Positions 19,907 to 33,848 are shown, counted from the stretch's first letter. The stretch is 64,000 bases of DNA from a bacterium (GCA_030704665.1 JAUYID010000009.1:64163-128162); one strand, 5' to 3'. Notes: generated by a model not told the origin, from the sequence alone. A program made the numbers and translations.

Positions 19907-20659
19907 ATGATGGAAAACTCTCCAGAAATTGGTCCGCACTCGCAAATAGACTCAACTTTAGAAAAGATACGCAGCAACACTTCGGATGAAGAACGCGGTG
20001 GGGTAATTCTTTTTGAACAAGAAAAAACACCAGCAGAAAAAAGGGCCAATGAAATTTACGATAGTTTGAGTCTTACTTTGGGGGAAATTGCTGAAGAAGC
20101 TGCTGCCCAAAGTAAAAAAGGTCAGCACGGACGAGAAGCAGAAATTGTTTTGAATGAAATTCTTGAAGTGACAAACGTAACTAACGCTTTTTCCAAAGGA
20201 GAGGTTGAGTTTGAAAGAAACACTAGTCATGAAGCTGAGGCCACAGCTAGAGGAGACAAAATATATTCCTACAGGTCTAATGGAGCGCTGATTGGGTTGA
20301 AAGAGTATGACGTTGATCTGATGATTCGACCGGCGGCCTTTGAAAGAATCGCCGAAGTAGGAAGAAATGTTCAATTTGAAGATGACCGCGAGCAAAGATT
20401 GGCTTTGCGGATTCATCCCCGCCAGGCGATGGGCTCGGATATTCTCGTTCGTATCGATCCAGAGGATGAAATTCAATTTGATATTCAAGCTGATTGGGTT
20501 GATCTGCTAGATTTTTCTGCAGCCGGACAAAAAGCCGGACACCATTTCTCTAGTGGGCTGAAGTACGCAGATTCTCGCGCTAGCTTTCGTGAAGTTCTTG
20601 AAACAATTAATACGAAAGTAAAGGTTCGGGGAGCGGAAAGTTTGCGCACAGCCGCCTAG
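19907..20659 (+). CDS. hypothetical protein
   Basis: 250-aa ORF starting at ATG 19907, 5 nt after the upstream stop. Acidic, with no TM helix and no recognised motif. Confidence 0.5.
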   Translation: MMENSPEIGPHSQIDSTLEKIRSNTSDEERGGVILFEQEKTPAEKRANEIYDSLSLTLGEIAEEAAAQSKKGQHGREAEIVLNEILEVTNVTNAFSKGEVEFERNTSHEAEATARGDKIYSYRSNGALIGLKEYDVDLMIRPAAFERIAEVGRNVQFEDDREQRLALRIHPRQAMGSDILVRIDPEDEIQFDIQADWVDLLDFSAAGQKAGHHFSSGLKYADSRASFREVLETINTKVKVRGAESLRTAA

Positions 20660-20769
20660 GGTTGAAATAGAGCCTGGTTTGTGTATAATATCCCAGCATC
20701 ATTCCTCCTGCCCGCAGACGCTAAAGCGTCAGCTTTTGCAGGCGGGCGGTAGCGTAGTAACATTAAGTT

Positions 20770-21015
20770 GTGACAAGGTTCTTCTACACTTACGTTTTAA
20801 GAAGTCTGAAGGATGGTGATTTGTACGTTGGCTGGACCGACGATTTAAAGTTAAGGTTGGAGAAGCACAACAAAGGCTTGGTAAGGACAACTAAAAGCAG
20901 AAGGCCTTTTGAACTAGTATACTTCGAAGCCGGCTTGTCAAAGCAAAAAGCTGTAAGCAGAGAAAAGAGTTTAAAAACTGGTTTCGGAAGGAAGTTTTTA
21001 AAGGTTAGAATTTAA
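20770..21015 (+). CDS. GIY-YIG nuclease-family protein
   Basis: FFYTYVLRSLKDGDLYVGWTDDLKLRLEKHN is a canonical GIY-YIG motif arrangement. GTG start. Confidence 0.8.
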   Translation: MTRFFYTYVLRSLKDGDLYVGWTDDLKLRLEKHNKGLVRTTKSRRPFELVYFEAGLSKQKAVSREKSLKTGFGRKFLKVRI

Positions 21016-21020: not shown

Positions 21021-21095
21021 TCCTCGGTAGCTCAATGGTAGAGCGGCTCCCTGTTAAGGAGATGGTTGTAGGTTCGAATCCTACCCGAGGAGCCA
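21021..21095 (+). tRNA. tRNA-Asn(GTT)
   Basis: Acceptor TCCTCGG/CCGAGGA, anticodon loop CT-GTT-AA, T-loop GGTTCGAATCC, CCA encoded. Its 3' end is overlapped by the stop region of the recombinase gene. Confidence 0.8.
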
Positions 21096-22769
21096 GATAG
21101 GATTTGGGGTCACAGAGACTCCATTTTCGTTTGTTGTAGCAGCTTCTTTTTCAGGTTCGAACATTTCACCAATGTCAGGACTCTTTTTTATGGCTTCCTC
21201 AATCAGTCTGTAAGGTTTTTTCACCTCTAGCGAGATAAGTTTATCTTTTAGTATTGGGTTCGAACCAAGACCAGCCAAAATAATCCTTTTCTTTTCCAAA
21301 CTGCCGTTTTCTAACCAGTAGGGTGCGTTTCTTGCAAAGTCGAAGTCTTTCTCTGCTTTTGTCATCCAATTCTCGACACTTTGATTTGTCTCTTTAAGTT
21401 TTTGTTCTAGTGACTTTTTATCTTTAAGTAGGGAAGTTTTTCGTTCCAAATACTCACTATCGGAAATAAGTTCCCCAGCCACGTTCTTAGGTGAAATCTT
21501 GAGTTTGAGTAGGTTATCAAGTTCGGTGAGAACGTCCTTGTGAGCCTCTTTGAGCGAGGCAGAGACGCTATTTCTTGTGTTCACTTCTACATCAGTCTCT
21601 TTGTTCAATTCTTCAATCGCCCAGTCTTGGAAAGCCTGTGAAATTTGTATTCGCTTTAGCTTGTCACTAAGTTGTTCTTCAAGTTTACTTACTTCAACAC
21701 TTCTTTGAGTGCAGTTAGGATTTTTCCTTTTTGTGCAGTGGTAGTAAATGTAGTGCAAGATTTTAGGATTTACCATAGCCTCGATTAGAATTTTACACTT
21801 TGGGCAGTCTGTCTTTCCGTTAGCAACGAATTTGAGTTTGCAAGATGGGCAAATAATTTGCCACTTTTCCTCAGCAGTTATAACAGCGTTACATTCCCCG
21901 CAATTCATGAGACCTGTATAAGCAAATTCGTGGGTTTTAGCTCTTGGTCGTCCTTTCCTTCCCAAAAGCATCTGTACCCTTTCAAATTCTTCTTTAGTTA
22001 TCATCTTCTCGTGCTTGCCGTCATACCAAACACCACTTCCTTTGGGGAACTCATAGCTACCATAATAGAAAGTATCTCGAAAAACTTCGTAAATTCTGCT
22101 TTTGGCCATGGGGTTCCCACCAATTCTTTTATGTTTGGGAGTTCTGTATCCCCATTCGTTATTTAGTTTGTCTAATATCTGGGGTGGTGTATAAGCACCA
22201 GTCAGCATTAATTCCCAAGCTTTTTTAATCAAAGGGAACCTTGTCGGGTCACTTTGGACAGTCTTATTACCCTTTTCTGCATATTTATCGTTCATGTAAC
22301 CTGGTTTGGCACCAGTGGGAAGTTGACCCATCCCTGCCTTAGTTCTAAGACCGCGTTTTACATCAACACTTAATTTAGAGGAAGAGTATTGAGAATGAGA
22401 TAAGGCACTTTGAAGCATCATTATTCCCTCAGGAGAGTTATCGAAATAGTAAGAACCGAACTTTAGGTCTTTAATTACTCCAGTTCTAACTAGGTAAGTG
22501 ATGGTTGCCGCGTCAATCTCGTTGCGTGATAGTCTGTCTGGGTGCCATGCGATAATTCCATCCGCTTGTCCAGATTTGATAAGTTCAATCATCTCTGCAA
22601 ACTTGGGGCGGTTGTCTGGGATGAAGGCACTTTTTGACTCTTCAAGGTCAATGGTGGTAGGGTGCAAATCAGGAAACTTCCTTTCAAGCTCAAGTCTTTG
22701 AGATTCGTTTGAAAGAGCCTGCCTTTCGTCTTGTTCTGATGATTTTCTTCTATACTCGATATATTGCAT
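21081..22769 (-). CDS. large serine recombinase (site-specific integrase)
   Basis: N-terminal resolvase catalytic domain (YRRKSSEQD...DRLSRN). Central recombinase domain. Cys-rich zinc-ribbon (CGECN...CPSCK...CPKCK). C-terminal coiled-coil. Confidence 0.85.
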   Translation of the reverse strand: MQYIEYRRKSSEQDERQALSNESQRLELERKFPDLHPTTIDLEESKSAFIPDNRPKFAEMIELIKSGQADGIIAWHPDRLSRNEIDAATITYLVRTGVIKDLKFGSYYFDNSPEGIMMLQSALSHSQYSSSKLSVDVKRGLRTKAGMGQLPTGAKPGYMNDKYAEKGNKTVQSDPTRFPLIKKAWELMLTGAYTPPQILDKLNNEWGYRTPKHKRIGGNPMAKSRIYEVFRDTFYYGSYEFPKGSGVWYDGKHEKMITKEEFERVQMLLGRKGRPRAKTHEFAYTGLMNCGECNAVITAEEKWQIICPSCKLKFVANGKTDCPKCKILIEAMVNPKILHYIYYHCTKRKNPNCTQRSVEVSKLEEQLSDKLKRIQISQAFQDWAIEELNKETDVEVNTRNSVSASLKEAHKDVLTELDNLLKLKISPKNVAGELISDSEYLERKTSLLKDKKSLEQKLKETNQSVENWMTKAEKDFDFARNAPYWLENGSLEKKRIILAGLGSNPILKDKLISLEVKKPYRLIEEAIKKSPDIGEMFEPEKEAATTNENGVSVTPNPIWLLG

Positions 22770-22893
22770 AACTTAAATGGCCACCCTGGTTGAACTCAGA
22801 TTCCTTGCGGTTTCTGTCCAAGATGGCCATTAAAAAACCACAAGATTCCTGAGTTCATTGTAATTATCTCATATACAAATGCAAAAATAAACA

Positions 22894-23526
22894 TCATATA
22901 GGCTTAGTGAATGTTTCAACAGCTTCTTCTAATCTATCGTCCTCTTTCCAACCATTTTCTGCCAAAATTGAATCTGCTAATTTCATATCTTCTATTGTAA
23001 AGCTGCTTGACTTACCACCTTCCTCCCACATTTTTTGATATTCTTCATCACTTCTTAAAGAACTAGAAGCCTTAGAAGAACTAAAAGCAGAAACCTCTTT
23101 TTGAGGCAATTCCTGTTTTACTAGCGAAACAAATTGTTCTGTAGGTGAAACTATCTGTTTCACTGGTGAAATGTTTTGTTGCACTACTGAAAGATTGATT
23201 TCATACTCACTTCTTCCAGTTCTAGTAATAAGACCCTTTTGCAAAAGCGTCTTTAAGTTGTTATTAACCTTAGTAGCAGACCATTCAGATTTTGGCAATA
23301 GTGCAGCTAAACCACGATTAGTTGCTTCCACTTTCCCATAAGTTTCTTGATTACCTTCAAACCAAGCATAAAGAGAGACTAATAATGACCAAAGTCTAAA
23401 TTCTGGGTCTGTTAGAGATAAGTCTCTGGCCACTAAGTGCCTTTTACGTGATAGTCTTTCAAAACCACTACCATTAAGCCTTTTTAGCAGATCCATGCTT
23501 ACCCCCATTTGGTATTGGCTCAACAA
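22894..23526 (-). CDS. hypothetical protein (island cargo)
   Basis: 210-aa ORF with internal short repeats (PVKQIV/PTEQFV/LVKQEL). The start could be the internal Met MDLLKRL. Confidence 0.45.
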   Translation of the reverse strand: MLSQYQMGVSMDLLKRLNGSGFERLSRKRHLVARDLSLTDPEFRLWSLLVSLYAWFEGNQETYGKVEATNRGLAALLPKSEWSATKVNNNLKTLLQKGLITRTGRSEYEINLSVVQQNISPVKQIVSPTEQFVSLVKQELPQKEVSAFSSSKASSSLRSDEEYQKMWEEGGKSSSFTIEDMKLADSILAENGWKEDDRLEEAVETFTKPI

Positions 23527-23833
23527 TCTCCCTCATTAAAGCCAAGAAATCAGTAGCCACATCAGCTGCTTCTTGATCAGAAAGTTCTGACCCAAACTCA
23601 AGTTTGTAGATATTTTTGAATTTTTCTAAGGCATTTTTACTGATCATTGGCTAAAAACTCTCCAACTAAAAACTCCAGGCTCACGAGAGATAAACCTGGA
23701 GATTCTAGCCCTCGTGACTTTTTAGCCACAAAAAAAGTGGCTGGTACATAAATTCATCAAATTCATGTGCCAACCACTGAGGCTGGGCGAGAGATAAGCT
23801 CTCGTCTTAACTAACTATAAGTATAACACGTCA

Positions 23834-24046
23834 TTAAATGTTTGAGATGAGTTCCAAAGGTTTAACTCCAAGTGCTTTAGCCAGTTTAACAATTGTTCTG
23901 AGAGTTGTATTTCTTCTACCCATCTCAATTTCATTGACTGAAGTCAGATCCATACCAATTTCGAACGCTAGTTTCTCTTGAGATAAACCTTTATTTTCTC
24001 TGAGTTCTCGAACTTTGCCCCCAAATTGTGAGAGGAAATTTTCACT
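23834..24046 (-). CDS. XRE-family helix-turn-helix transcriptional regulator
   Basis: LRENKGLSQEKLAFEIGMDLTSVNEIEMGRR is a classic HTH_XRE. Start placed at MSENFL. Transcribed divergently from 24110. Confidence 0.75.
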   Translation of the reverse strand, partial: SENFLSQFGGKVRELRENKGLSQEKLAFEIGMDLTSVNEIEMGRRNTTLRTIVKLAKALGVKPLELISNI

Positions 24047-24055
24047 CATGATTAT

Positions 24056-24105
24056 TGTATTTATGCCAAATGGTTGGTATAATGTCTTTGGCATTTATGC
24101 CAAAC
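24056..24105. promoter_or_regulatory. divergent promoter/operator: TTGTAT-17-TATAAT with three ATGCCAAA half-sites including a perfect TTTGGCAT-TT-ATGCCAAA palindrome
   Basis: Direct reading of the sequence between the XRE gene and the secreted-protein gene. The palindrome overlaps the -10/+1 region, as expected for repressor binding. Confidence 0.45.
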
Positions 24106-24109
24106 TAAT

Positions 24110-24559
24110 ATGAGACTTAAAATACTTCTAGTTATTTTAGGTTCTCTGCTTCTTGCCTCTGGAACCTATTTAGGAATAAATAAACTCAAACCACAACAAA
24201 AGGAACAAAGTTCTGTCGCTGTTGTTGTGGAGAATAAAGTAGCCACTAAATCTGCTGACCTAGCACAAGAAATGAAGAAAGAAGATCCAAAACAACCAGG
24301 AAAAGTAAAGGGATCTAGTACCAAAACAAACCCACCAGCCCCTTACCAGCCCTCGCAGGAACTAGTAGGCTACCTACAACCTTTAACCCAAGGTTTGGAG
24401 GTAGAAGCTCAAACTTCTACTGAAAATCCCAACTCTAACGAAACAAAAGACTGCACACCAATAACTCAACCTGGTACTTGGCAAGACGGCGTGGGAGTAA
24501 CTGTAACCATTGATCCTTGTACAAACATAAAACAGGATCAGCCTTTAATTAACCCTTAG
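24110..24559 (+). CDS. secreted hypothetical protein (signal peptide)
   Basis: MRLKILLVILGSLLLASGTYLG signal peptide. Low-complexity Q/P/T-rich mature region. Confidence 0.5.
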   Translation: MRLKILLVILGSLLLASGTYLGINKLKPQQKEQSSVAVVVENKVATKSADLAQEMKKEDPKQPGKVKGSSTKTNPPAPYQPSQELVGYLQPLTQGLEVEAQTSTENPNSNETKDCTPITQPGTWQDGVGVTVTIDPCTNIKQDQPLINP

Positions 24560-24572
24560 TGTCGGACATAAA

Positions 24573-24908
24573 ATGGAATGGTTTAACAAACTTACAAATC
24601 CTCAATTTGAAGCTAAAATAGAAGAACCTTCAGTCGAGCCTAACGAGCCTGAACAGGTAGTGGGCGTTAGAGATTTGAAGGGTGATGAAGGTAATACTAG
24701 TAATATGATGATATGGGGTGCTCCTTGGTGGCATTGGCTGGTTGGCTTAATAGTTTTTATACCTTTTCTACTTCTTATAAATCTAGTGGAGCGTTTAAAT
24801 CTGAATGAGAGCATAAAATTGTTGCTTTTAGTACCTGGGTCTGTGATTGTTTTTGGTATTTATGGTTTTATTACCCACGAGATTATTAAGAAGTTTTCAA
24901 AAAAGTAG
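24573..24908 (+). CDS. hypothetical membrane protein
   Basis: 111 aa. Acidic N-terminus then two TM helices. Confidence 0.45.
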   Translation: MEWFNKLTNPQFEAKIEEPSVEPNEPEQVVGVRDLKGDEGNTSNMMIWGAPWWHWLVGLIVFIPFLLLINLVERLNLNESIKLLLLVPGSVIVFGIYGFITHEIIKKFSKK

Positions 24909-24911
24909 GTT

Positions 24912-25040
24912 TATTCCTTTTCCTTTGGGATAATTCGCCAGGCGAATAATCTTTCTTTAGTAAAGAAAACCTCCTACTTTTTTCCTTTGAGATAGTGTGC
25001 CAGGCACATAATCTTTCCGTGTTTGCCTGGCGAGAGGTTG
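24912..25040. repeat. iteron-like direct repeats, each containing a short palindrome
   Basis: Repeat 1 TTCCTTTTCCTTTGGGATAATTCGCCAGGCGAATAATCTTTC (palindrome ATTCGCC-A-GGCGAAT). Repeat 2 TTTTTTCCTTTGAGATAGTGTGCCAGGCACATAATCTTTCC (palindrome TGTGCC-A-GGCACA). A third partial unit has TTGCCTGGCGA. Confidence 0.5.
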
Positions 25041-25049
25041 ATGAGGTTT

Positions 25050-25090
25050 AACCTGCAAAAGACTTTGCAGGTTGCTTTGTATTCTTTTAA
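25050..25090 (+). terminator. rho-independent terminator-like hairpin
   Basis: AACCTGCAAA-AGAC-TTTGCAGGTT perfect 10-bp stem followed by GCTTTGTATTCTTTT. Confidence 0.5.
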
Positions 25091-25312
25091 AAGCTTTAGC
25101 CTTATCAATGTCCTTTCAGAACCAAATTGGCTTAAATTTAGAAGCTTGCAATGTTTTTTGCAAGCTCTGCTGGCATGAAACAGTTTAAGATAATTTTAAA
25201 AAAATTTACGTACAGGGGAGGGAGTAGAGGTCTCGATCCTAAAAGTTGTAATTAGCCTTAACTTTTCGTCAAAATGTTGACTTTTGTTAGTCTTTGTAAA
25301 TTAATGTAAAGC

Positions 25313-25495
25313 TCAATCCAAACCAATTTCCTTGAACTTCTTATTTAAAATGTCGCTGATGTGCTTTTTTTGAAGCAGTTGCCAGGCAACCTGTCTTGGG
25401 TTTTTAGTAGCGTAGCCTGATCTTCTAACAGACTGAGCACCGCTCCCCAAACTCTCAAAATAAAATTTAACAAACAAACGTTCTTTTATAGTCAA
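25313..25495 (-). pseudogene. phage terminase small-subunit N-terminal fragment (remnant)
   Basis: The 60-aa ORF ERLFVKFYFESLGSGAQSVRRSGYATKNPRQVAWQLLQKKHISDIL matches the N-terminal DNA-binding region of terminase small subunits (the ...QAAIRAGYS... signature). Full-length proteins are ~150 aa, so this is truncated. Confidence 0.5.
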
Positions 25496-25553
25496 AATAA
25501 AACTCCTTTATTCATTTAACTAGCAATTAAAGTCTCGCTCTTTAGCTTCTATC

Positions 25554-27239
25554 ATGCTAAAATTCAACCTACTCATGGCATCAACTTTAGAGGATAAAAG
25601 TAAAGAAGAGCTAATAGGTATTATAAAACATCTAAAAAAGCGAAAGAAGTTTGGTTTGGTCTGGGAAGAAAAGCCAGAGGATGTTGTTGAGCAGTGCAAA
25701 AAAGAGCTACCAGTCCTTGAAGAAGTTAAAGACAAAACTATCGCTGAGGATTCAAACGGCCCTACAAATCTCCTTATTGAAGGTGATAATTACCATTCTT
25801 TATCAGTACTAAACTATACTCACGCTGGGAAAATAGATGTGATTTATATAGACCCGCCTTACAATACAGGTGCACGTGATTGGAAATACAACAACCACTT
25901 CGTAGATTCCAATGATACCTACAGACATAGTAAGTGGGTTGCTATGATGCATAAGCGTCTAATACTTGCAAAAAACTTACTTAAACAAGATGGGGTTTTA
26001 ATTGTCACCATTGATGACAATGAATTTAGTTCCCTCGGCCTTCTTTTAGATGAGATATTTCCCAATAAAGTTAGGACGACAGTTGTTATCAAATATAATC
26101 CAGCTGGTACTGCAAGAAGCGGGTTTTCCAGATGTCACGAGTATGCCATATACCTACTAAACCCAGGCCAAGAAATCAACAAAAAACCTGCCCCTCCCGA
26201 TATTAGAAGTAGAAATTTACGCCGAAATGGTAATAACTCCGACAGATCAGACAGTCCTACTATGTTTTACCCAATATATGTAGATAAGACCACACTTAAA
26301 GTCATTGGAGTTGGAGAAGCTCCAGGTAATGATTTTCATCCCGAAAAACAGACATTTGAGCACAACGATCGTTATGAAGTTTGGCCACTAGATGAAAATA
26401 ACAAGGAAAAAAACTGGTATTACAGTAGGAAAAGAGTGGAGGACAAAGGTAGTGAAGAATTAGTTGGTCGAGTTGTAAAGGAGAAAGTCCATCTTTATTT
26501 TTCTACTAGTAATAACTCTGAACAAAAATACCAAACAGTTTGGACGGGAAGCGAATATGACGCTGGGGCTTATGGAAGCAGCTTGGTTAAAGAAATAATT
26601 GATACAAAATTTCCTTTTCCCAAATCCCTATATGCCGTACGAGATTGCATAAAATCAGTAATTAAGTCTAAAGAAGCTATAGTTTTAGATTTTTTTGCAG
26701 GGTCGGGAACAACAGGACACGCGACTATGCTTCTTAATAAGGAAGATGGCGGTAACCGCCAGTTTATTTTATGCACTAATAATGAAAACGGGATAGCCGA
26801 GGAGATCACATATCCAAGAATAAAGAACACAATTTCAGGTTATTCTAACATAGAAGGTATTCCCGCTAATTTACGTTATTTCAAAACCTCTTTTGTATCC
26901 AAATCTAAAGTTTCTGACGACACTCGTAGAGAATTAGTTAAGCGTAGTTCTGAAATGATTTGTGTGAGAGAAAATACATTTGAGGAGACTGTAGATACAT
27001 CAAGTTTCAAGATCTACAAAGATTCCGAACATTTAACGGGCATTCTCTTTGATTTAAACTCTATAGATGACTTCAAAAAAACTGTAAGAGAGCAAAAGTT
27101 ACCTGCTAATATATACGTGTTTTCACTTACTAACGATACGTATGACGAGGATTTTGAAGATTTAGGAATTGATCACAATCTCTGCCCGATACCAGAAAGC
27201 ATACTTGAAGTTTATAGAAAAGTATTTAGGAGAAAATAA
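25554..27239 (+). CDS. mod: Type III restriction-modification DNA methyltransferase (Mod subunit, beta-class N6A/N4C MTase)
   Basis: DPPYNT (motif IV) precedes FFAGSGTTGHA (motif I), the beta-class order typical of Type III Mod. Abuts the res gene. Confidence 0.85.
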   Translation: MLKFNLLMASTLEDKSKEELIGIIKHLKKRKKFGLVWEEKPEDVVEQCKKELPVLEEVKDKTIAEDSNGPTNLLIEGDNYHSLSVLNYTHAGKIDVIYIDPPYNTGARDWKYNNHFVDSNDTYRHSKWVAMMHKRLILAKNLLKQDGVLIVTIDDNEFSSLGLLLDEIFPNKVRTTVVIKYNPAGTARSGFSRCHEYAIYLLNPGQEINKKPAPPDIRSRNLRRNGNNSDRSDSPTMFYPIYVDKTTLKVIGVGEAPGNDFHPEKQTFEHNDRYEVWPLDENNKEKNWYYSRKRVEDKGSEELVGRVVKEKVHLYFSTSNNSEQKYQTVWTGSEYDAGAYGSSLVKEIIDTKFPFPKSLYAVRDCIKSVIKSKEAIVLDFFAGSGTTGHATMLLNKEDGGNRQFILCTNNENGIAEEITYPRIKNTISGYSNIEGIPANLRYFKTSFVSKSKVSDDTRRELVKRSSEMICVRENTFEETVDTSSFKIYKDSEHLTGILFDLNSIDDFKKTVREQKLPANIYVFSLTNDTYDEDFEDLGIDHNLCPIPESILEVYRKVFRRK

Positions 27240-29521
27240 TGACACTAAAAAGCTACCAAAAAACTGCCGTGGATAAACTACTAAAGATAAGTAATAAGCT
27301 CCTGAAAAAAGATGGCCAAAGAGTTTGCGTCTTAAAAGCACCAACAGGTTCAGGTAAGACTATTATGATCGCTGACTTTTTGAAACAGCTTGCCGCTGAA
27401 CAGCTGCCCAATTCGTATGCCTTTATTTGGGTGAGTGGTAACAACCTACACAAACAAAGTAGAGATAAGCTCGAAAGATACCTTAATCCAAGCCGCTACA
27501 CCTTCTCTTACCTCGAAGAGATTCAGAACAGTGAGATAAAAGAAAACGAGATTGTCTTTGTTAACTGGCATAGCTTGACCAAACAAGATAGAACTACAGG
27601 TGAATACACCAACGTTTTTATGAGGGACAATGAAACCGATCAAAATCTTCGAACCTTTGTTAAAAACACTAAGGAAAATGGGTTACAAATTATACTGATA
27701 GTTGATGAAAGTCACTATCATTACTGGTCACTAAAATCTCAGCAGCTTGTCCAAGAGGTTATTGGCCCTAAATTGACACTAGAGGTTTCTGCTACACCAA
27801 AACTAGAACCTTCCAGAGATGAGATTGATCATGATGAAGCGGGGTATGTCTCCGTTCGTTTTGATGACGTAATCGCAGAAGGAATGATTAAAAGCGAAGT
27901 GATAATCAACAAAGAGATCGGTAAATACTCGGAATTTTCTAACGCTGCTGATGAAGCGATCCTTTCAGCTGCTTTGGAAGAGCGTCAGGAATTGGCTAAG
28001 CTGTACGAAGAAAGAAAGTCTGACATCAATCCTCTGATGTTAATTCAACTTCCGAGTGAAAGTGAATCAACAAGCAGCCTTGATAAAACTAAGCTTGAGT
28101 TTGTGGAAAGTTTTCTCAAAGAAAAGCACAATATTACAGTTGAAAATGGTTTGCTTGGAATTTGGTTGTCTGAGAGAAAAGATCATGTAGATAATATCTC
28201 TGATCCAGATAGTAGCGTACAAGTTTTGATCTTTAAGCAAGCGATTGCATTAGGATGGGATTGCCCAAGAGCACAAGTACTTGTTATGTTCAGAGAAATA
28301 AAGAGTGTTACCTTTGAAATACAGACTGTTGGGCGAATACTTAGAACACCAGAGGCGAAGCACTACGAGGAGGATCAACTAAATAAGGCTTACGTTTACA
28401 CAAATCTTGAAAAACTACATATTGCCCAAGACAAAGAAAGTCAGTCGTTTTTCCAGGTTTACCCTGCACATAGAACAGCAAAATATTCGAAAATCGAATT
28501 ACCCTCTACATATCTAAGTCGTATTGACTATGGTGATCTTACTCTGAGTTTTAGAAAACTATTTCTCGAAGAGGCTAATAAGTATTTTGGCGTTTCAGAA
28601 AACGACATGCCTAGTGGAGCGAAGAAAAAGGCTGATGTAAAACTCGATCTTCTTCCTAGCGAATTAAAACAACCAGTTATCTCTGATACAGTTATTCAAG
28701 ATATTGATGATCCTGAAAGTATTCTTGGGCCTATTGTTAACTTCCCTGTTCCTGAGGATGATTTGAAATACAAGTTTGAATACTTTGCTAAAGCCCGTTC
28801 TGTTCCTTATGCTCCTGTTCGCTCTCACACAAAAATTCAACAAGCGATTTATGATTGGTTTGACGATTACTTAGGTTACAAAGATTCAAGCAGAATTGAA
28901 ATCCAGCGTATTGTAGTATGTTCTGAAAATAACCAAAAGATTTTCAAGGAAATAATTGAGACTGCAAAGGATCGCTTCAAGGAAGTTAATAAAAAGGAGA
29001 AACAAGCTAAACAGCCTGAAAAAGCAGTTGTTTGGGACGTTCCAGCCCTTCAGTACTTCAATGAGCTTTATGAGGCCATAGAAACCTCTAACTACTCTCA
29101 AGAACCATGTTACGTACAGAAAGGCCGATCAGCTCCTGAAAAAGAATTTGAAGATGAAATTAAAAAAAGTAAGACGATTGATTGGTGGTATAAAAACGGC
29201 ACCAACAAGGAAAGCTTTTTCGCCTTACCTTATCAGCATCCAATCAAGGACACTAAACAAAGTTTCTACCCAGACTTTATCATTCACTTCAAAGATGGTT
29301 CTACAGGAATTTATGACACAAAGAGTGAAGCTACAGCGGAAAGTACTGAAACAGCAGCAAAATCAGACGCTTTGTATGCTTATCTAAAAGAACTCAATTC
29401 AAAGGGGTTTAAAGTCAAAGGAGGGATCGTTAATGTGAAACCCTCTGGAATGTTTATTTACGAGGCTAAGAAGTATAGTACTGATCCTAATTCCCCTGGT
29501 TGGCATAGAGCGGAAATCTAA
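27239..29521 (+). CDS. res: Type III restriction enzyme Res subunit (SF2 helicase-nuclease)
   Basis: Walker A VLKAPTGSGKT. DEAH-like IVDESHY. Helicase motifs QTVGRILR. Start overlaps the mod stop (ATGA). Confidence 0.85.
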   Translation: MTLKSYQKTAVDKLLKISNKLLKKDGQRVCVLKAPTGSGKTIMIADFLKQLAAEQLPNSYAFIWVSGNNLHKQSRDKLERYLNPSRYTFSYLEEIQNSEIKENEIVFVNWHSLTKQDRTTGEYTNVFMRDNETDQNLRTFVKNTKENGLQIILIVDESHYHYWSLKSQQLVQEVIGPKLTLEVSATPKLEPSRDEIDHDEAGYVSVRFDDVIAEGMIKSEVIINKEIGKYSEFSNAADEAILSAALEERQELAKLYEERKSDINPLMLIQLPSESESTSSLDKTKLEFVESFLKEKHNITVENGLLGIWLSERKDHVDNISDPDSSVQVLIFKQAIALGWDCPRAQVLVMFREIKSVTFEIQTVGRILRTPEAKHYEEDQLNKAYVYTNLEKLHIAQDKESQSFFQVYPAHRTAKYSKIELPSTYLSRIDYGDLTLSFRKLFLEEANKYFGVSENDMPSGAKKKADVKLDLLPSELKQPVISDTVIQDIDDPESILGPIVNFPVPEDDLKYKFEYFAKARSVPYAPVRSHTKIQQAIYDWFDDYLGYKDSSRIEIQRIVVCSENNQKIFKEIIETAKDRFKEVNKKEKQAKQPEKAVVWDVPALQYFNELYEAIETSNYSQEPCYVQKGRSAPEKEFEDEIKKSKTIDWWYKNGTNKESFFALPYQHPIKDTKQSFYPDFIIHFKDGSTGIYDTKSEATAESTETAAKSDALYAYLKELNSKGFKVKGGIVNVKPSGMFIYEAKKYSTDPNSPGWHRAEI

Positions 29522-29564
29522 GACACTACCGAAACCTGCTATAGAAACTCTTTGGTTAAAAAGC

Positions 29565-31298
29565 TTAGTCTTTTAGATCAAATTTAGAATAAAGCCAGCT
29601 AAAAATCTCTTCCACCTTTGTCCGAGTACTTTTAGACAAAGTTATTTTACTCGAATCGGTCTCAACATCCTCAAGAAAAACCCTTGAAACAAGCTCTTTC
29701 TTGCCTTTTACCAACTCTGAGTTGGATTTACTAACTTTAGTTGGGTAGCTTTCCTTTAGAATAAATTTATAAAAATCCTTGGGATCAAAAATATCTTCAA
29801 TTCCCATACAATCCTTTATTTTCTTGATACTTTCTCCAGCAACGGTATCGTTGTCCTCGAAAAACTCCTTTTTAAGCTGATTGTAAGCTTTTCTACCCGA
29901 GTCTCTATCATCGTCAAAAACAGCTTTAAAAGGATAACCCCAGCCTAATAAAACACTCGCTACATTGGCAATATTATTAACTCCGCAAGCGGGAATGAAG
30001 CAAAGTTTGTCGTCTTTGTCTAAAAGCTTCTGAAAAGCTGAAAGATAATAATGGTCGCTTATACCTTCAACCAGAACGTTAAGTCTAAGATTCGGATCTA
30101 ACAAAGAGTGAGAGGCACTGAGTCCCATCGCTGTCACAATAGGCGAGAGGGCATCCATTCCACCTTTATGCTTTCTCCCACTAAATTGGGCGACAGTTTC
30201 AACCTTTGTACAAAAATCTTTTTCATTAGTTACCAAGCGTATTCTAGCAAACTCCTTGCCAACTACCCCGATAAGATTTGGGTTGTGTGTCGTGTAGATA
30301 ATTTGTGCACCTTTGGAAGCTATTTCGTTCAAAACTTTCTTAACATCTTTTTGGGCCCTTTCATGCAAACCTTGACCAGGCTCATCAATAAGTATCACCA
30401 GATTTTTTATTGAGGATTCCTCGACCCCTAAAGCTCTTAACCTTAAATTAAACGCACTAAACCATTGAAAACCCTGGCTTTTTTGCTCCATATAAAGAGG
30501 GTCGCCATCATTTCGGTCAATTAAGAACTGAATTTTTGGTGATGTTTCGTGCGGAAGTATTTTTACCTTAAAGTTGTAACGTCCATTTTCCTCAAGCTGT
30601 TGCGACCAATAAGTGTTTAGATCATCACTAGCTTCTTTTTCCAACCTACTTTCTTCTCTGTTGACTGCTCTTGCATCCTTTCCAGCTATATCGGAGAAAT
30701 TTGCTTTAAAAACTGCTTGAAAGTCCATTACAGCCTGGTGATTGCTAATATCAGCGACAGGTACTTCTCCAGGAAGAAGATCCCTAAAGGAATCATAAAA
30801 GACGAATTTTCTCATTTCAATTACCAAATCTTTTAAAAGACCTTCCAAGGTAGTTATACTCGCTTTGTTTGCTACCTCTTGCCCTTCAGTCTCTGGTGCT
30901 GGATTATCATCAACTACGAAAAAACTAGCTAATTGCTCAGAATCCTTACTTTCAAATTCAATGTCACCCACGTTTCTTCTAACAAATGTTATTTTTGGAT
31001 TCTTGGTCAGAAATGATCTTAACTTCTGATTCTCTGTTTCGTTGAAAATATTTTCTATATCCCAATCTTCCAGCAGAAAGGTGCAAGTTACTTCTGGATC
31101 CTGCCCTTGCCTTCTTAAAAGACGTTCAAAGTCTGGTTGCGGGCCGTTTCGAAAAAAGTCCAGGGATTCTATAATTGCACTTTTACCAGCCTCGTTTTGT
31201 CCTGCCAGAATAGTGATGTTATCTTTCTCAGGTAGCTCGCAGAATCCAGTATCAACTATAGATTTAAAATTTTTAATTTGAAATGCTGCTAATCTCAT
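29565..31298 (-). CDS. OLD-family ABC-ATPase fused to a TOPRIM nuclease domain (Gabija GajA / PARIS-like defence nuclease)
   Basis: N-terminal Walker A AGQNEAGKSA. Walker B/D-loop LVILIDEPGQGLHERAQ. C-terminal TOPRIM (VLVEGISDHYYL...FIPACGVNN). Confidence 0.75.
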   Translation of the reverse strand: MRLAAFQIKNFKSIVDTGFCELPEKDNITILAGQNEAGKSAIIESLDFFRNGPQPDFERLLRRQGQDPEVTCTFLLEDWDIENIFNETENQKLRSFLTKNPKITFVRRNVGDIEFESKDSEQLASFFVVDDNPAPETEGQEVANKASITTLEGLLKDLVIEMRKFVFYDSFRDLLPGEVPVADISNHQAVMDFQAVFKANFSDIAGKDARAVNREESRLEKEASDDLNTYWSQQLEENGRYNFKVKILPHETSPKIQFLIDRNDGDPLYMEQKSQGFQWFSAFNLRLRALGVEESSIKNLVILIDEPGQGLHERAQKDVKKVLNEIASKGAQIIYTTHNPNLIGVVGKEFARIRLVTNEKDFCTKVETVAQFSGRKHKGGMDALSPIVTAMGLSASHSLLDPNLRLNVLVEGISDHYYLSAFQKLLDKDDKLCFIPACGVNNIANVASVLLGWGYPFKAVFDDDRDSGRKAYNQLKKEFFEDNDTVAGESIKKIKDCMGIEDIFDPKDFYKFILKESYPTKVSKSNSELVKGKKELVSRVFLEDVETDSSKITLSKSTRTKVEEIFSWLYSKFDLKD

Positions 31299-31383
31299 TT
31301 ATTGCTTTCATTTTGGCAAACAAAAAACTGCCACTTGGGACAGTTCTTGATCAAGTATAGTCTAAGCCACAGTAGGTTTCAAG

Positions 31384-31683
31384 CTAGGGATCGGTCACCA
31401 ATTCGACATCCAATAGCTTTTGCCACTTTTCTCCAAACCTTGTTTCAAGGCTATTTTTAAGGCTGTGGAGAACATCAGCTGCTCCATACAAATGTATGGT
31501 TACTTCTTCGCCAGTTAACATCAGACCCGCTTTGTCTGTTAGAGCAACCTTACGAAGGACTAGTAGGTTGGGGTCGGTGCTGCTTTTGAATTTTGGCATT
31601 CCGTCCGACCACCACGTACCACTAGGGTTTGACGAAATCTTTATTATTCCTTGTTCTACGGCTTCTTTTAAAGTAGTCGACAT
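31384..31683 (-). CDS. hypothetical 99-aa protein, upstream in the same operon as the OLD-family nuclease
   Basis: Co-oriented with the nuclease gene and 85 nt upstream of it. No recognisable motif. Confidence 0.45.
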   Translation of the reverse strand: MSTTLKEAVEQGIIKISSNPSGTWWSDGMPKFKSSTDPNLLVLRKVALTDKAGLMLTGEEVTIHLYGAADVLHSLKNSLETRFGEKWQKLLDVELVTDP

Positions 31684-32047
31684 ACAATTCTTTTATCACG
31701 TGAACGTTTAGTAGTCAACCAAGCGTACTGTGGTAAATAAATGACCTACCTGTTTTAGAAAAATTATTGTCGCACTGGTGAGGCAGTTTCCCAGCTCGAA
31801 TTTTTATCAAAAGAGGGTGTATGGAGGGTCAATCTTAAAAAGGTTTGGAGAGAGTCCTGCCTTGTTTAAGAATAGATGTAATAGTTTCTAACATCGTCTA
31901 TCAAGGAGAGCCATAAAAAAGCTTCTGATCGCAAGGACGGAAGTTTATTTCTTTCTTCTAGTTTGATTCGATCCTCGAATCCTTGTTTTTGCAAAGCAAA
32001 AAATGGGCGCTAAGCGATCATATAGAACGAGTGGTCGCAGGAAACTT

Positions 32048-32069
32048 TAGTTTCCTACCCCCGGAGCCA
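32048..32069 (+). repeat. degenerate tRNA-Asn 3'-end copy (candidate attR of the island)
   Basis: AGTTTCCTACCCCCGGAGCCA resembles the tRNA-Asn T-stem/acceptor/CCA with ~17 of 22 matches. Confidence 0.3.
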
Positions 32070-32112
32070 TTACCTCAAGCTGTCTTCAGCGCAGGATCCT
32101 AACAAAGTGGAT

Positions 32113-32156
32113 CCTATAGTATTTGACTTTTCAAGCTAACTCTGCTATACTTTCAG
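32113..32156 (+). promoter_or_regulatory. consensus sigma-70 promoter module P1 (TTGACT-17-TGCTATACT) upstream of high-GC ORF 32274
   Basis: -35 at 32123-32128 and -10 at 32146-32151. The flanks (CCTATAGTA upstream, shared spacer positions) match the modules at 46215 and 49833. Confidence 0.5.
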
Positions 32157-32273
32157 CTAATAAATCTCATTATTTTTCCCTCAATTCTTGTCGCTAAATC
32201 TGCTTTCAAACTGTTTGAATGTAGACAGAGCGGTAAGAGTTTACACCGACCTTGAGTCGGAGGGAGGCGAGAA

Positions 32274-32678
32274 ATGACGTCCGTATTATCCTGGTTGTTT
32301 GGTAGCAAAACCAAGCAAGCACCGGCGGTTCAGCCACAGAGGCCAGAAAACCCTCTGCTGAACCGACTCCGCGGTATCACCCCAGGGGTACAGGAGGTGC
32401 AGAAGTCGCAGCAGTCCGAGGTGGGCAAACAGCGATTCCTCACGGAGTTAGACGAAGTCAAGGAGATCGTGGAGGGCCTCGAAGGCAAGATGATCGAAGC
32501 CGCCAACGAAGGGCGAGACTATATCGACGTCTACAGGTCTAATTCACGAAGCCCAGAGGGTCTGCGAGGTTTGTCTCGTGCCGTCTTCGACTACTTGGAA
32601 CGAGAGGGCTTTAATCCGATCATCTGGGAGACGTATGACACACTCGGATCTTACAACCTAATTGCAGTTAGATGGTGA
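32274..32678 (+). CDS. high-GC hypothetical protein (compositionally foreign cassette)
   Basis: About 60% GC with GC3-rich codons. Strong RBS GGAGGGAGG 6 nt upstream. Hydrophilic 134-aa protein. Confidence 0.5.
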   Translation: MTSVLSWLFGSKTKQAPAVQPQRPENPLLNRLRGITPGVQEVQKSQQSEVGKQRFLTELDEVKEIVEGLEGKMIEAANEGRDYIDVYRSNSRSPEGLRGLSRAVFDYLEREGFNPIIWETYDTLGSYNLIAVRW

Positions 32679-32900
32679 TCACAAAAAGACCACCCGAATT
32701 AGTGCCCGTTAGAAGCACTCTGGTCGCTGCATACCTGTTCCCTAAGAAGAACAAAATGCAGCAAGTCCTTAAGATAATCATAAACTGGTTAATTTAAGAC
32801 AACAAACTAGCTGAAAGGTTAGTTTTTTGTTGGTAAAAAGTTCCAACATTCTTCATAAACACATTTATTTTCAGTATATTTGAAAACGTGCTAAAAGAAC

Positions 32901-33848
32901 CTACTGAAGTAACTCAAAAAGCACAAAAGACAGATAGAAAAGAATTAGAACAACGCCTTCCGCTCGTGTGATTCCTTGCTTAGATTTGGAAAATAGGTAA
33001 AAGAGCACTAATCCCAAAGCTATGAACAAAAAAGTCATTAAGTAGCCGTCTTTGGTCAGAACTTCCCCGTTGTGAAGCAAGGTAAAAACTCCAAAGAGTA
33101 AGGTATTGGCTGCTGCCGAACCAACATAATCGCCAAAAACAATATCTTTTTTACCTAAAATCACTCCTTTTACCGCTAGACTAAGCTCAGGTAAATTAGT
33201 TCCGATTGAAAGGAAAATTAAACTGATCACGAAAGGTGAGATATTAAAGAAGTTAGAGAAGTAAAGAGTCTTGTCCAAGATTATATTACTGGCAAAGAAG
33301 ACAATCACAATCCCACCAATCAGTTTGGCAATGTCGGTTAGGAGAGTCGTGTTTGGTTTTAAGTTATCAACCATGTCCTCAAAGTTCTCGATCACGCCTT
33401 TTCTTCTTTCGACCAAAATGATTAAAAATAGGTAGAGTAGAATCAAAATAACTCCTTCAAGATTGGATACCCGAGCGTCGCTGACAAAGAGTGCCGGAGC
33501 TGCAATGACCGCGAGGGCTATCACTAAATTCCTGCCTTCAAACTGGTGAGTTAGTCTAATCCCGTTATTCAAGACAGCTAGCAGAGGTATTACCAGTAAA
33601 AAGATAACCACGACACCACCAAGCAGGTTCCCGACAAAAATATCAGGCTTTCCCTCTAGGACTGCCCCTAAACCGACTGAAAATTCTGGTATTGAAGTAA
33701 GCAAACCTAAAACAAGAAAAGAAAAGGCGAAAGGAGATAGTTTTACTCGTTTAGAGTATTTATCAACCGCTGAAATTATTAAACCAGCACCAAACCAAAT
33801 TAGACCGAAGGAAGCTAGATAAATGAAAAGGTTTAGGAACGCCATCAA
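32901..33848 (-). CDS. CaCA-family cation/Ca2+ antiporter (YrbG-like sodium/calcium exchanger membrane protein)
   Basis: Two internal repeats of ~5 TM each with alpha-repeat motifs GLGAVLEGKPDIFVGNLLGG and TNLPELSLAVKG. Confidence 0.7.
   Translation of the reverse strand: MMAFLNLFIYLASFGLIWFGAGLIISAVDKYSKRVKLSPFAFSFLVLGLLTSIPEFSVGLGAVLEGKPDIFVGNLLGGVVVIFLLVIPLLAVLNNGIRLTHQFEGRNLVIALAVIAAPALFVSDARVSNLEGVILILLYLFLIILVERRKGVIENFEDMVDNLKPNTTLLTDIAKLIGGIVIVFFASNIILDKTLYFSNFFNISPFVISLIFLSIGTNLPELSLAVKGVILGKKDIVFGDYVGSAAANTLLFGVFTLLHNGEVLTKDGYLMTFLFIALGLVLFYLFSKSKQGITRAEGVVLILFYLSFVLFELLQ

What the first reader, a model, noticed from the sequence alone, without database searches (positions are those of the whole stretch)
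21021..32069. About 11 kb integrative defence island at tRNA-Asn with a large serine recombinase
The recombinase gene's stop region overlaps the last 15 nt of tRNA-Asn. A degenerate copy of the tRNA 3' end occurs at ~32051-32069. Between them lie an XRE repressor with a palindromic operator, two small secreted/membrane proteins, iteron-like repeats, a truncated phage terminase small subunit, a Type III R-M system (mod-res) and an OLD-family ATPase-TOPRIM nuclease operon. Serine integrases rarely generate long target duplications, so the apparent attR copy may instead be a scar of an older tyrosine-integrase event at the same tRNA.
Basis: partly seen in the sequence, partly recalled or inferred. 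Interest (0 to 1): 0.55.

Follow-up and report, generated by a model that had tools for sequence, protein, structure and literature searches.

The report
tRNA-targeting serine-integrase defence island
A roughly 11 kb mobile island carrying two anti-phage systems sits in the tRNA-Asn gene of an uncultured ultra-small (CPR) bacterium. Its integrase belongs to a large group of serine recombinases that, unusually for that enzyme family, insert next to tRNA genes.

Summary
tRNA-Asn(GTT) lies at 21021-21095, and a 562-aa large serine recombinase (LSR, 21081-22769, minus strand) ends 15 nt inside it. The cargo is a Type III R-M system and an OLD-like nuclease. A tRNA-3'-end copy lies at 32054-32069.

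The host is a Woykebacteria-like Patescibacterium. Four relatives keep sigA - RNaseH-like gene - tRNA-Asn without an LSR. One relative carries a different LSR element at the same tRNA, with the same 15-nt overlap.

A nearer, decayed tRNA-half copy (31856-31913) was missed. It abuts sequence that in one relative follows the tRNA directly. The site therefore records nested integrations, and nothing implicates a tyrosine integrase.

The main result is at family level. In 51 of 80 genomes with relatives of this LSR, the LSR reading frame ends inside a convergent tRNA gene; about 0.2 are expected by chance. Nine amino-acid specificities are involved. I found no description of tRNA-targeting LSRs.

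The exact crossover point is unresolved. The island is ordinary; the integrase clade is a new variant of a known kind.

The parts
21021..21095 (+). tRNA-Asn(GTT), the integration target; attL side. Its 3' part (somewhere from the anticodon loop to the last ~5 nt) is inferred to be supplied by the element.
   Evidence: The acceptor stem TCCTCGG/CCGAGGA pairs perfectly.
21081..22769 (-). Large serine recombinase, 562 aa. The last 15 nt of the gene are the reverse complement of the tRNA 3' end.
   Evidence: Pfam. PHROG integrase 2.2e-50. Profile against PDB: SPbeta SprA/YokA 1.5e-16, TP901-1, phiC31, A118. Y6, R8 and S10 are conserved in the family alignment.
22894..23526 (-). ORF of 200-210 aa; a weak resemblance to DnaD-like helicase loaders makes it a candidate replication protein.
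   Evidence: phrog_186 at 7.7e-4 only. No Pfam or NCBIfam hit.
23474..23647 (-). Small ORF of 57 aa that accompanies related LSR genes; function unknown (candidate directionality factor, speculative).
   Evidence: tblastx finds homologues just upstream of the LSRs in L088 and L089.
23834..24094 (-). XRE-family helix-turn-helix regulator (71-86 aa).
   Evidence: HTH_3 6.8e-17. Similar small HTH genes occur in the LSR elements of L086, L088, L089 and L091.
24087..24104 (.). Perfect 8+8 palindrome TTTGGCAT-TT-ATGCCAAA in the divergent promoter gap, with a half-site at 24060-24070; candidate operator.
   Evidence: (family D20).
24110..24559 (+). ORF149, with an N-terminal hydrophobic signal or anchor.
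   Evidence: Hydropathy. No family hit.
24573..24908 (+). ORF111, with two predicted membrane segments.
24918..25017 (.). Two 38-nt direct repeats, each an internal hairpin. Only two copies, so not demonstrably iterons.
   Evidence: (family D4).
25313..25495 (-). 60-aa protein resembling the N-terminal DNA-binding part of terminase small subunits. It is a conserved stand-alone gene of these elements.
   Evidence: Terminase_2 1.5e-9, profile positions 1-56 of 141. phrog_51. A 60-aa homologue lies in L085-87.
25554..27239 (+). Type III R-M methyltransferase (mod).
   Evidence: N6_N4_Mtase 8.8e-29. PADLOC MTase_III 5.4e-81.
27239..29521 (+). Type III R-M restriction subunit (res), 760 aa.
   Evidence: ResIII 3.6e-19 and Helicase_C. 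REase_III 6e-19. A weak TnsA-like nuclease hit at residues 658-719.
29565..31298 (-). OLD-like ABC-ATPase plus TOPRIM nuclease, 577 aa.
   Evidence: AAA_15 and AAA_21, with OLD-like_TOPRIM at 21.5 bits. PADLOC Old 6.2e-23.
31384..31683 (-). ORF99, unknown function; the last gene of the island.
   Evidence: Called in the Logan assembly. No family hit.
31856..31913 (+). 'Fragment 1': a decayed copy of the tRNA-Asn 3' part (anticodon loop to ...GAGCCA). It is the nearest candidate attR.
   Evidence: Semi-global score 42 against shuffles of 20.9 +/- 3.8 (0 of 2000); 3 of 2000 without the last 8 nt. Positional homology to L082 and to the tRNA 3' end of L129.
31914..32011 (+). Spacer homologous to the sequence that directly follows tRNA-Asn in L129: an A-run, a GNRA-capped hairpin at 31922-31943, T-rich tracts, and a second hairpin at 31965-31981.
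   Evidence: Window 31878-31982 against L082: 70% identity, score 79.5 against a shuffle maximum of 31.5. L129 against L082: 60 against 33. Terminator-like site.
32012..32069 (+). 'Fragment 2': an older tRNA-Asn 3'-half-like scar. It is the alternative attR.
   Evidence: 42 against 21.6 +/- 4.0; 0 of 2000. Homologous fragments occur in L129 and L082.

Best explanation
The region is an integrative element of about 10.8-11.0 kb. Its left junction lies inside or at the 3' end of tRNA-Asn at 21053-21095. Its right junction is at 31856-31913 or 32054-32069. The host is a Woykebacteria-like Patescibacterium (CPR).

The element's integrase is a large serine recombinase from a CPR-wide clade that uses tRNA genes as chromosomal attachment sites. 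The element brings its own copy of the tRNA 3' end, which now completes the functional tRNA. The recombinase gene runs convergently into that copy, so its last codons and stop codon are tRNA sequence read backwards. The former 3' part of the tRNA was pushed to the far end of the element and has decayed.

The locus records at least two such events, seen as two tRNA-half-like fragments about 155 nt apart. The older one is shared with relatives that lack the island.

The core module comprises the LSR, a small conserved ORF, a DnaD-like ORF, an XRE regulator with its operator, two envelope proteins and a 60-aa TerS-N-like protein. The cargo is a Type III restriction-modification system and an OLD-like nuclease, so for the host the island acts as an anti-phage defence island.

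Shown: the gene content, the overlap, the tRNA-like fragments, the absence of the island at the same tRNA in relatives, and the clade-wide LSR-tRNA association.

Inferred: that this LSR performed the integration; the crossover position (anticodon loop, T-loop or acceptor positions 70/71 are all still possible); and that precise excision using fragment 1 would now rebuild a defective tRNA-Asn, which would lock the element in place.
For: Anatomy.

Foreign composition: GC 0.36-0.40 inside against 0.43-0.45 outside.

Host identity: the sigA product is 100% identical to that of an NCBI MAG with a 938-kb contig, and 85-88% identical to Woykebacteria sigma factors.

Variable occupancy of the same tRNA-Asn: L082/83, L084, L128 and L129/130 have no LSR. 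L085-87 carry another LSR element with the same 15-nt overlap.

Empty-site chain: the L129 tRNA 3' end plus its downstream sequence aligns to L082 at 13907-14065, which is 3.16 kb beyond the L082 tRNA (score 60 against 33). That L082 stretch aligns in turn to window 31878-31982 (79.5 against 31.5).

Both tRNA-like fragments are significant when tested at a fixed position.

Clade-level evidence:
- At least 575 relatives occur in GTDB genomes, almost all Patescibacteria.
- In 51 of the best 80 loci the LSR ORF ends 10-106 nt inside a convergent tRNA. Four more show a partial tRNA at a contig end, and one abuts a tRNA 3' half.
- Chance expectation is 0.19 loci.
- Targets are Asn, Gln, Trp, His, Ser, Asp, Glu, Leu and Ile.
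- Far-end tRNA-derived repeats occur in L018 (22 exact nt starting at the anticodon, then 17 nt) and L077 (16 exact nt).
- Tandem LSRs occur in L088.

Precedent for an att site inside the 3' end of a serine-integrase gene: PMC4701971.
Against: - No excised circle, no attP and no exact empty site of the same species could be found. Junction searches in metagenome and viral contigs gave nothing. Flank-protein scans found no relatives.
- Fragment 1 is only about 70% like the tRNA and is not significant in an unanchored search. A chance hit of similar raw score exists at 50111-50154.
- Part of the decay of fragment 1 is shared with L082, whose island has entirely different genes and no LSR. The displacement that created fragment 1 may therefore predate this particular element.
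- Most relatives (43 of 46 testable) show no recognisable far-end repeat within 10 kb.
- Evidence on the crossover position is contradictory.
Confidence: 0.72

Rival explanations
1. A single 11-kb island runs from 21021 to 32069, with the copy at 32054-32069 as attR or as a scar. Because serine integrases make only tiny duplications, that copy would be left over from an older tyrosine-integrase element.
For: - The copy is real (14 of 16).
- With the LSR-side flank it reconstructs a tidy candidate attP, TTTCCTA-N14-TAGGATT. This has the same geometry as attL, AATCCTA-N14-TAGGATT.
- A hypothetical excision joining at this copy is still called tRNA-Asn by ARAGORN.
- The fragment does look older than the island, because it is shared with L129 and L082.
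Against: - No tyrosine recombinase is present in the window region or at the relatives' sites.
- Relatives of this LSR and published serine-integrase ICEs have repeats of 16-21 nt or more.
- A nearer tRNA-like fragment lies between the island and this copy.
- The 155 nt between the two fragments directly follow an LSR-free tRNA in L129.
Confidence: 0.25
2. A locked or inherited hotspot island. The tRNA-Asn to cold-shock-gene interval is a long-standing variable hotspot. The present gene set arrived by homologous recombination in conserved flanks, or by successive replacement. The LSR is now a passenger that can no longer excise the island. This overlaps with the best explanation and differs only on present mobility.
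For: - The interval between tRNA-Asn and the cold-shock gene is 14.8 kb in the window and 4.4 kb in L082, with unrelated genes.
- Derived features of fragment 1 are shared by the window and L082.
- Joining the tRNA 5' part to fragment 1 yields no recognisable tRNA.
- Only one tRNA-Asn gene lies in the window.
Against: - The LSR ORF is intact, with conserved catalytic residues.
- Its arrangement at the tRNA is exactly that of 51 other loci.
- The composition remains foreign.
Confidence: 0.35
3. A phage satellite or integrative plasmid rather than a plain defence island. The XRE switch, the DnaD-like protein, the repeat pair and the TerS-like protein would form a PICI-like regulation, replication and packaging-hijack module.
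For: - The 60-aa TerS-N-like protein is conserved across elements.
- The L085-87 element has a Prim-Pol replicase and DUF669 next to the same HTH / secreted protein / TerS-like block.
- The DnaD-like hit is weak.
- Two hairpin repeats lie nearby.
Against: - No capsid, portal or large-terminase gene is present.
- Only 36 distant relatives of the LSR occur in 2.9 million viral contigs, against at least 575 in genomes.
- All functional assignments except the HTH are weak.
Confidence: 0.15
4. The LSR-tRNA overlap is a coincidence, and the recombinase is an invertase or resolvase unrelated to integration.
For: Only the general fact that Resolvase-domain proteins include invertases.
Against: - 51 of 80 relatives overlap a convergent tRNA, against 0.19 expected.
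- The Recombinase and zinc-ribbon domains mark integrase-type LSRs.
- The PHROG integrase hit is 2.2e-50.
Confidence: 0.01

Closest known systems
Single serine-integrase ICEs of Streptococcus integrated in rumA (Ambroset et al. 2016, PMC4701971)
   Same: - A large serine recombinase gene converges on the target gene.
- One copy of the direct repeat (2-21 bp) lies inside the 3' end of the integrase gene.
- Integration exchanges the 3' parts of the two genes.
   Different: - The target there is a protein-coding gene in Firmicutes; here it is tRNA genes of at least nine specificities in Patescibacteria.
- No conjugation genes are present here.
- Identity to known LSRs is very low (about 24% to phage integrases).
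SCCmec / Ccr recombinases at the 3' end of rlmH (orfX)
   Same: - An LSR-driven island lies at the 3' end of a conserved RNA-related gene.
- Direct repeats of about 15 bp restore the gene end.
- Tandem or composite arrays with repeated att scars occur (established knowledge).
- NCBIfam CcrA/B/C models hit weakly.
   Different: - Scores are far below the Ccr cut-offs (33-38 bits against 700-900).
- The target here is a tRNA.
- The recombinase gene here abuts the att site.
Tyrosine-integrase genomic islands in tRNA genes (P4-like islands, PICIs, many ICEs; sublocation classes of Williams 2002, from my own knowledge)
   Same: - Integration is into the 3' part of a tRNA gene, with an element-borne replacement copy.
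- A displaced tRNA fragment marks the far end.
- Serial accretion leaves fossil fragments.
- The integrase gene sits next to the tRNA.
   Different: The enzyme family is unrelated: the catalytic domain is of the serine resolvase type, and no tyrosine recombinase is present.
Characterised phage LSRs (SPbeta SprA, A118, TP901-1, phiC31, Bxb1)
   Same: The domain order is resolvase, recombinase, zinc ribbon. Profile hits to their solved structures were found.
   Different: - Those integrate into protein-coding or intergenic sites.
- In the largest computational LSR survey, the word tRNA does not occur (PMC10083194).
- A single-sequence search of the window LSR against PDB finds nothing at E <= 1e-3.
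Defence islands carrying Type III R-M and OLD-family (P2 Old / class 1 OLD) nucleases
   Same: The mod-res pair and a stand-alone ATPase-TOPRIM protein sit side by side on a mobile element.
   Different: Nothing unusual was seen in the cargo. The TOPRIM match is marginal, and Res is short (760 aa).

Membership tests
Large serine recombinase (integrase type) | N-terminal resolvase catalytic domain with the conserved Y-x-R-x-S serine nucleophile motif | tested here: met
   PF00239 at 7.5e-14 over residues 4-149. Y6, R8 and S10 are nearly invariant in the 34-sequence alignment.
Large serine recombinase (integrase type) | Recombinase domain (PF07508) following the catalytic domain | tested here: met
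   3.1e-8, at 34.2 bits against a cut-off of 21.1.
Large serine recombinase (integrase type) | Zinc-ribbon domain with an embedded coiled coil | tested here: inconclusive
   PF13408 at 20.0 bits, below the 25.3-bit cut-off. Many invariant Cys residues (C290, C293, C345, C353 and others). The coiled coil was not examined.
Large serine recombinase (integrase type) | Short attB and attP sites with a 2-bp crossover and imperfect dyad symmetry | tested here: inconclusive
   A dyad AATCC-N18-GGATT is centred near tRNA position 70/71 in attL. It is the best of 24 centres tested and is absent from 53 control tRNAs. The far-end repeats, however, point to the T-loop or the anticodon loop.
Genomic island integrated in a tRNA gene | Integrase gene adjacent to the tRNA, and a tRNA-derived direct repeat at the far end | tested here: met
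   15-nt overlap. Fragments at 31856-31913 and 32012-32069.
Genomic island integrated in a tRNA gene | Absence from the same site in related genomes | tested here: met
   L082/83, L084, L128 and L129/130 lack it. In L129 the tRNA is contiguous with sequence homologous to window 31914 onwards. No same-species empty site was found.
Genomic island integrated in a tRNA gene | Demonstrated excision or a circular form | not testable with these tools
   No reads are available. Junction pattern searches were empty.
Type III restriction-modification system | A Mod methyltransferase and a Res SF2-helicase subunit in one operon | tested here: met
   PADLOC MTase_III 5.4e-81 and REase_III 6e-19. ResIII and Helicase_C domains. 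The mod stop and res start overlap at 27239.
Type III restriction-modification system | C-terminal PD-(D/E)xK endonuclease motif in Res | tested here: inconclusive
   Only a weak TnsA-like_N hit (7.6e-3) at residues 658-719.
OLD-family nuclease | N-terminal ABC-type ATPase fused to a C-terminal TOPRIM domain | tested here: inconclusive
   The ATPase is clear (AAA_15 1.2e-19). OLD-like_TOPRIM scores 21.5 bits, under the 23.2-bit cut-off. The PADLOC Old model hits at 6.2e-23 over residues 294-468.
R-M controller (C) protein | A small HTH gene immediately upstream of, and co-oriented with, the R-M genes it controls | tested here: not met
   The best PADLOC hit is Control_protein (3.7e-18). However, the gene lies 1.4 kb away on the opposite strand, and similar HTH genes accompany LSR elements that have no R-M system.

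The most novel reading that the evidence does not exclude
Patescibacteria harbour a very large, previously undescribed clade of large serine recombinases whose natural attachment sites are tRNA genes of many specificities. The recombinase reading frame ends inside the element-borne tRNA copy. Repeated integrations at one essential single-copy tRNA leave nested fossil halves, can lock the resident element in place, and may drive the unusually fast turnover of tRNA-Asn stem sequences seen among close relatives. Such enzymes would be natural integration tools for CPR bacteria.
Probability: 0.4. Interest if true: 0.72.

Novelty: new variant of a known kind. Interest (0 to 1): 0.6.

Why it matters
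Serine integrases are the workhorses of genome engineering. They are generally described as targeting protein-coding or intergenic sites, while tRNA genes are regarded as the domain of tyrosine integrases. A clade with hundreds of members that sits at tRNA 3' ends would add three things:
- a new class of conserved, predictable attB sites;
- candidate tools for Patescibacteria, which are very hard to manipulate;
- an independent, convergent example of why mobile elements favour tRNA genes.

It would also show how defence genes (Type III R-M, OLD) move in bacteria with tiny genomes. The island on its own is an ordinary defence island.

Tried and rejected
1. Scanning genome contigs with the 276-aa flank ORF found no relatives. 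Scanning metagenome contigs with the Na/Ca-exchanger flank protein also found none.
2. Exact searches for the predicted empty-site junction (metagenome contigs) and the predicted attP junction (viral contigs) gave no hits.
3. Exact-protein look-ups of ORF134 and the GIY-YIG protein found nothing on record.
4. A megablast of the island against plasmids found no match.
5. Viral contigs hold only 36 distant relatives. Most are a shorter (~420 aa) type that does not overlap a tRNA, and the best one (L092, 42% identity) has its own stop codon and no tRNA-like sequence.
6. I first modelled the crossover inside GGAGCCA, with the copy at 32054-32069 as an element-borne mimic. I then favoured an anticodon-loop crossover after seeing L018 and L042. 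Neither model explains all the data, so I leave the position open.
7. I considered the XRE protein as an R-M controller protein and rejected that on position and on its presence in R-M-free elements.
8. A consensus fold of the hairpin after fragment 1 was uninformative, because I gave wrong coordinates for L082.
9. A tRNA-like local hit at 50111-50154 lies inside a coding ORF and is treated as chance.

Full report
**What is there**

ARAGORN and Rfam both place tRNA-Asn(GTT) at 21021-21095 on the plus strand. On the minus strand, an ORF at 21081-22769 encodes 562 aa. It carries Resolvase, Recombinase and (sub-threshold) zinc-ribbon domains. It also hits the PHROG integrase family at 2.2e-50. 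Its last four codons and stop codon (W-L-L-G-TAG) are the reverse complement of the last 15 nt of the tRNA. GC content drops from about 0.44 to 0.36-0.40 between 21.0 and 31.5 kb.

Behind the recombinase lie, in order:
- a 200-210-aa ORF with a weak DnaD-like hit;
- a 57-aa ORF;
- an XRE helix-turn-helix gene;
- a perfect palindrome TTTGGCAT-TT-ATGCCAAA in the divergent gap;
- a signal-anchored ORF149 and a two-segment membrane ORF111;
- two 38-nt hairpin repeats;
- a 60-aa protein matching the first 56 positions of the Terminase_2 profile;
- a Type III mod-res pair;
- an OLD-like ATPase-TOPRIM gene;
- a 99-aa ORF.

These assignments rest. Two corrections apply. The 'iterons' are only two copies. 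The 'truncated terminase' is a conserved 60-aa gene that recurs at the same length in an unrelated LSR element.

**Host and relatives**

The window's sigma factor is identical to one from an NCBI MAG with a 938-kb contig. It is 85-88% identical to Woykebacteria sigma factors. The recombinase's relatives are named Levy-, Davies-, Gottesman- and Woesebacteria and other Patescibacteria. Contigs carrying the closest sigma factors all keep the order dnaG - sigA - RNaseH-like gene - tRNA-Asn.

In L082/83, L084, L128 and L129/130, no recombinase follows the tRNA. In L085-87 the tRNA is followed by a different LSR, only 24% identical, with the same 15-nt overlap. Its cargo is a Prim-Pol replicase, DUF669, HTH genes, a secreted protein and the 60-aa TerS-like gene. 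The site is thus variably occupied, as expected for an integration hotspot.

**The right end**

It is the tip of a longer fragment at 32028-32069. That fragment aligns to the tRNA from the variable loop onward, with a 5-nt insertion. Tested at a fixed position, it scores 42 against 21.6 +/- 4.0 for shuffles.

It is not, however, the first tRNA-like sequence after the island. Window 31878-31982 is 70% identical to L082 13879-13985 (score 79.5 against a shuffle maximum of 31.5). That L082 stretch is in turn homologous to the last 8 nt of the L129 tRNA-Asn plus its immediate downstream sequence (score 60 against 33).

In L082 the same block lies 3.16 kb beyond the tRNA, behind an LSR-free island. 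In the window it lies 10.8 kb beyond the tRNA.

Immediately left of that block, the window has a decayed tRNA-like stretch at 31856-31913. It runs from an anticodon-loop-like TTGTTTAA to ...GAGAGCCA. It scores 42 against 20.9 +/- 3.8 (0 of 2000 shuffles), and 3 of 2000 shuffles reach its score when the terminal 8 nt are left out.

The simplest reading is nested events. An old event left the fragment ending at 32069 in the common ancestor of all three lineages. A later one displaced the fragment ending at 31913 in the ancestor of the window and L082. The decay pattern of fragment 1 is partly shared by the window and L082, although their islands share no genes. The island content has therefore turned over since that displacement.

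A caution applies. In unanchored searches fragment 1 is not significant, and a chance hit of similar raw score exists elsewhere in the window.

**The recombinase family**

A scan of one genome per GTDB species found at least 575 relatives, and I examined the best 80. In 51 of them the LSR reading frame ends 10-106 nt inside a convergent tRNA gene. Four more show a partial tRNA at the contig end. One (L042) abuts only a tRNA-Asn 3' half.

From the density of other tRNAs in the same 1.33 Mb, 0.19 such cases are expected. The targets are:
- Asn (18 loci);
- Gln (9);
- Trp (7);
- His (6);
- Ser (5);
- Asp (2);
- Leu (2);
- Glu (1);
- Ile (1).

Recurrent C-terminal tails such as ...RGWDSNPRPIG are simply the T-arm read backwards.

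Most loci without a tRNA come from MAGs labelled as other phyla, and their LSRs have unrelated C-terminal tails. Viral contigs hold only 36 distant relatives.

In the library available, I found no paper describing serine integrases that target tRNA genes. The largest LSR survey never uses the word tRNA. The TIGER/Islander announcement does not break down tRNA use by integrase family. The nearest precedent is the streptococcal rumA-specific serine integrases, whose att repeat lies inside the integrase gene's 3' end.

**Where is the crossover?**

Three lines of evidence disagree.

(a) Anticodon loop. L018 has an exact 22-nt copy of tRNA-His starting at the anticodon, a 46-nt insert, then 17 more tRNA nucleotides. 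This lies 7.3 kb from the LSR. L027 and L040 have decayed copies starting in the anticodon loop. In L042, the tRNA-like sequence next to the LSR stops matching tRNA-Asn in the anticodon loop.

(b) T-loop. L077 has an exact 16-nt repeat starting at GAATCC. The older fragment in the window has a mismatched T-stem (GCAGG...CCTAC). In L129 and L082 the acceptor part of that fragment is identical to the host's own tRNA, while the part to its left is not.

(c) Acceptor positions 70/71. Across 52 LSR-adjacent tRNAs, the T-loop AATCC is mirrored by GGATT or GnA on the LSR side, at equal distance from a centre 4-5 nt inside the tRNA end. Mean complementarity is 5.29 of 15 against 3.64 in 53 control tRNAs, and this centre is the best of 24 tested. 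The mirrored bases co-vary with the T-stem in L040, L013 and the window, where the dyad reads AATCCTA-N14-TAGGATT. Those mirrored bases also encode a conserved Asn-Pro motif, so coding constraint cannot be excluded.

Different subfamilies may use different sublocations, as tyrosine integrases do. I leave the point open.

**Consequences**

If the element excised using fragment 1, ARAGORN finds no tRNA in the product. Using the older fragment, a tRNA-Asn with two acceptor mismatches results. Only one tRNA-Asn gene lies in the window. The element may therefore be locked in, although the LSR ORF is intact and its catalytic motif is conserved.

Close relatives show four different tRNA-Asn acceptor stems and three different anticodon stems. 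That is a striking amount of variation for genomes whose sigma factors are 87-95% identical. Repeated replacement of the tRNA 3' part by element-borne copies is a possible, untested cause.

**Verdict**

The interpretation as an LSR-borne defence island at tRNA-Asn is supported. The island is ordinary. The clade-wide tRNA targeting by serine integrases in CPR bacteria is the noteworthy part, and I rate it a new variant of a known kind.

Noticed in passing
window 19829-21015: About 1.1 kb lies between the RNaseH-like gene and tRNA-Asn. It holds a doubtful 276-aa ORF and an 81-aa GIY-YIG gene. It is absent in L082, L084, L086 and L128, where the tRNA follows the RNaseH-like gene within about 50-100 nt. 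L129 has two other small ORFs there. This looks like a second small insertion, possibly a homing-type GIY-YIG element.
   Followed up: partly
window 21021-21095 compared with L082, L084, L086, L128, L129: tRNA-Asn is only about 79-81% identical between genomes whose sigA proteins are 87-95% identical. There are four acceptor-stem variants (TCCTCGG, TCCGCCG, TCCGGCG, TCCCCGG) and three anticodon-stem variants, all with compensatory changes.
   Followed up: partly
window 12747-12823 and 54136-54211: A tRNA-Arg with anticodon GCG and a tRNA-Ile with anticodon UAU are present. Both are uncommon in bacteria. The Ser/Arg tRNA cluster at 11.6-15.6 kb is conserved in relatives.
   Followed up: no
L001 (Logan SRR13727534 contig), its end = window 21064: The independent assembly of the same island stops 32 nt inside the tRNA, in the variable loop. 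That is what a branch in a k=31 assembly graph would give. It could reflect a second sequence context for the tRNA 3' part (an excised form, an empty site or another strain).
   Followed up: no
L018, about 7.28-7.37 kb upstream of the LSR start: The far-end copy of tRNA-His is split in its T-loop by a 46-nt insert containing a perfect hairpin, TCCGCC-TTC-GGCGGA. The motif TTTGCGCCTTA occurs both just after the tRNA and about 35 nt before the far-end copy.
   Followed up: no
L088 4624-6408 and 15215-16408: Two LSR genes lie in the same orientation about 10 kb apart on one contig. Defence-like genes lie around and between them (DNA methylase, Schlafen/AlbA_2-HATPase, DUF5677). This suggests tandem elements.
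   Followed up: no
L129 12786-12900 (and the identical L130): An exact 15-nt copy of the tRNA-Asn 3' end (CTACCCGGGGAGCCA) lies about 100 nt after the tRNA, with only a hairpin and T-rich tracts between. This is either a miniature element or the stump of a deleted one.
   Followed up: partly
viral loci L094-L122: A shorter (~420 aa) LSR subfamily dominates the viral contigs. Several have a convergent tRNA 0.1-3 kb downstream rather than overlapping.
   Followed up: no
window 31922-31943, L082 about 13921-13942: A GNRA-capped hairpin (CTTCTGATC-GCAA-GGACGGAAG) shows apparent compensatory changes between the window and L082 (read by eye). It is followed by T-rich sequence and is probably the tRNA's native terminator.
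   Followed up: partly
window 57029-57103 (+) and 57161-57235 (-): Two convergent tRNA-Met(CAT) genes lie 57 nt apart.
   Followed up: no
window 32070-35850: ORF134, a Na/Ca exchanger gene, a cupredoxin-like ORF132 and ORF454 lie between the scars and the cold-shock gene. They have no counterpart in L082, which has one 294-aa ORF there. This is a second variable segment, not linked to the LSR.
   Followed up: partly
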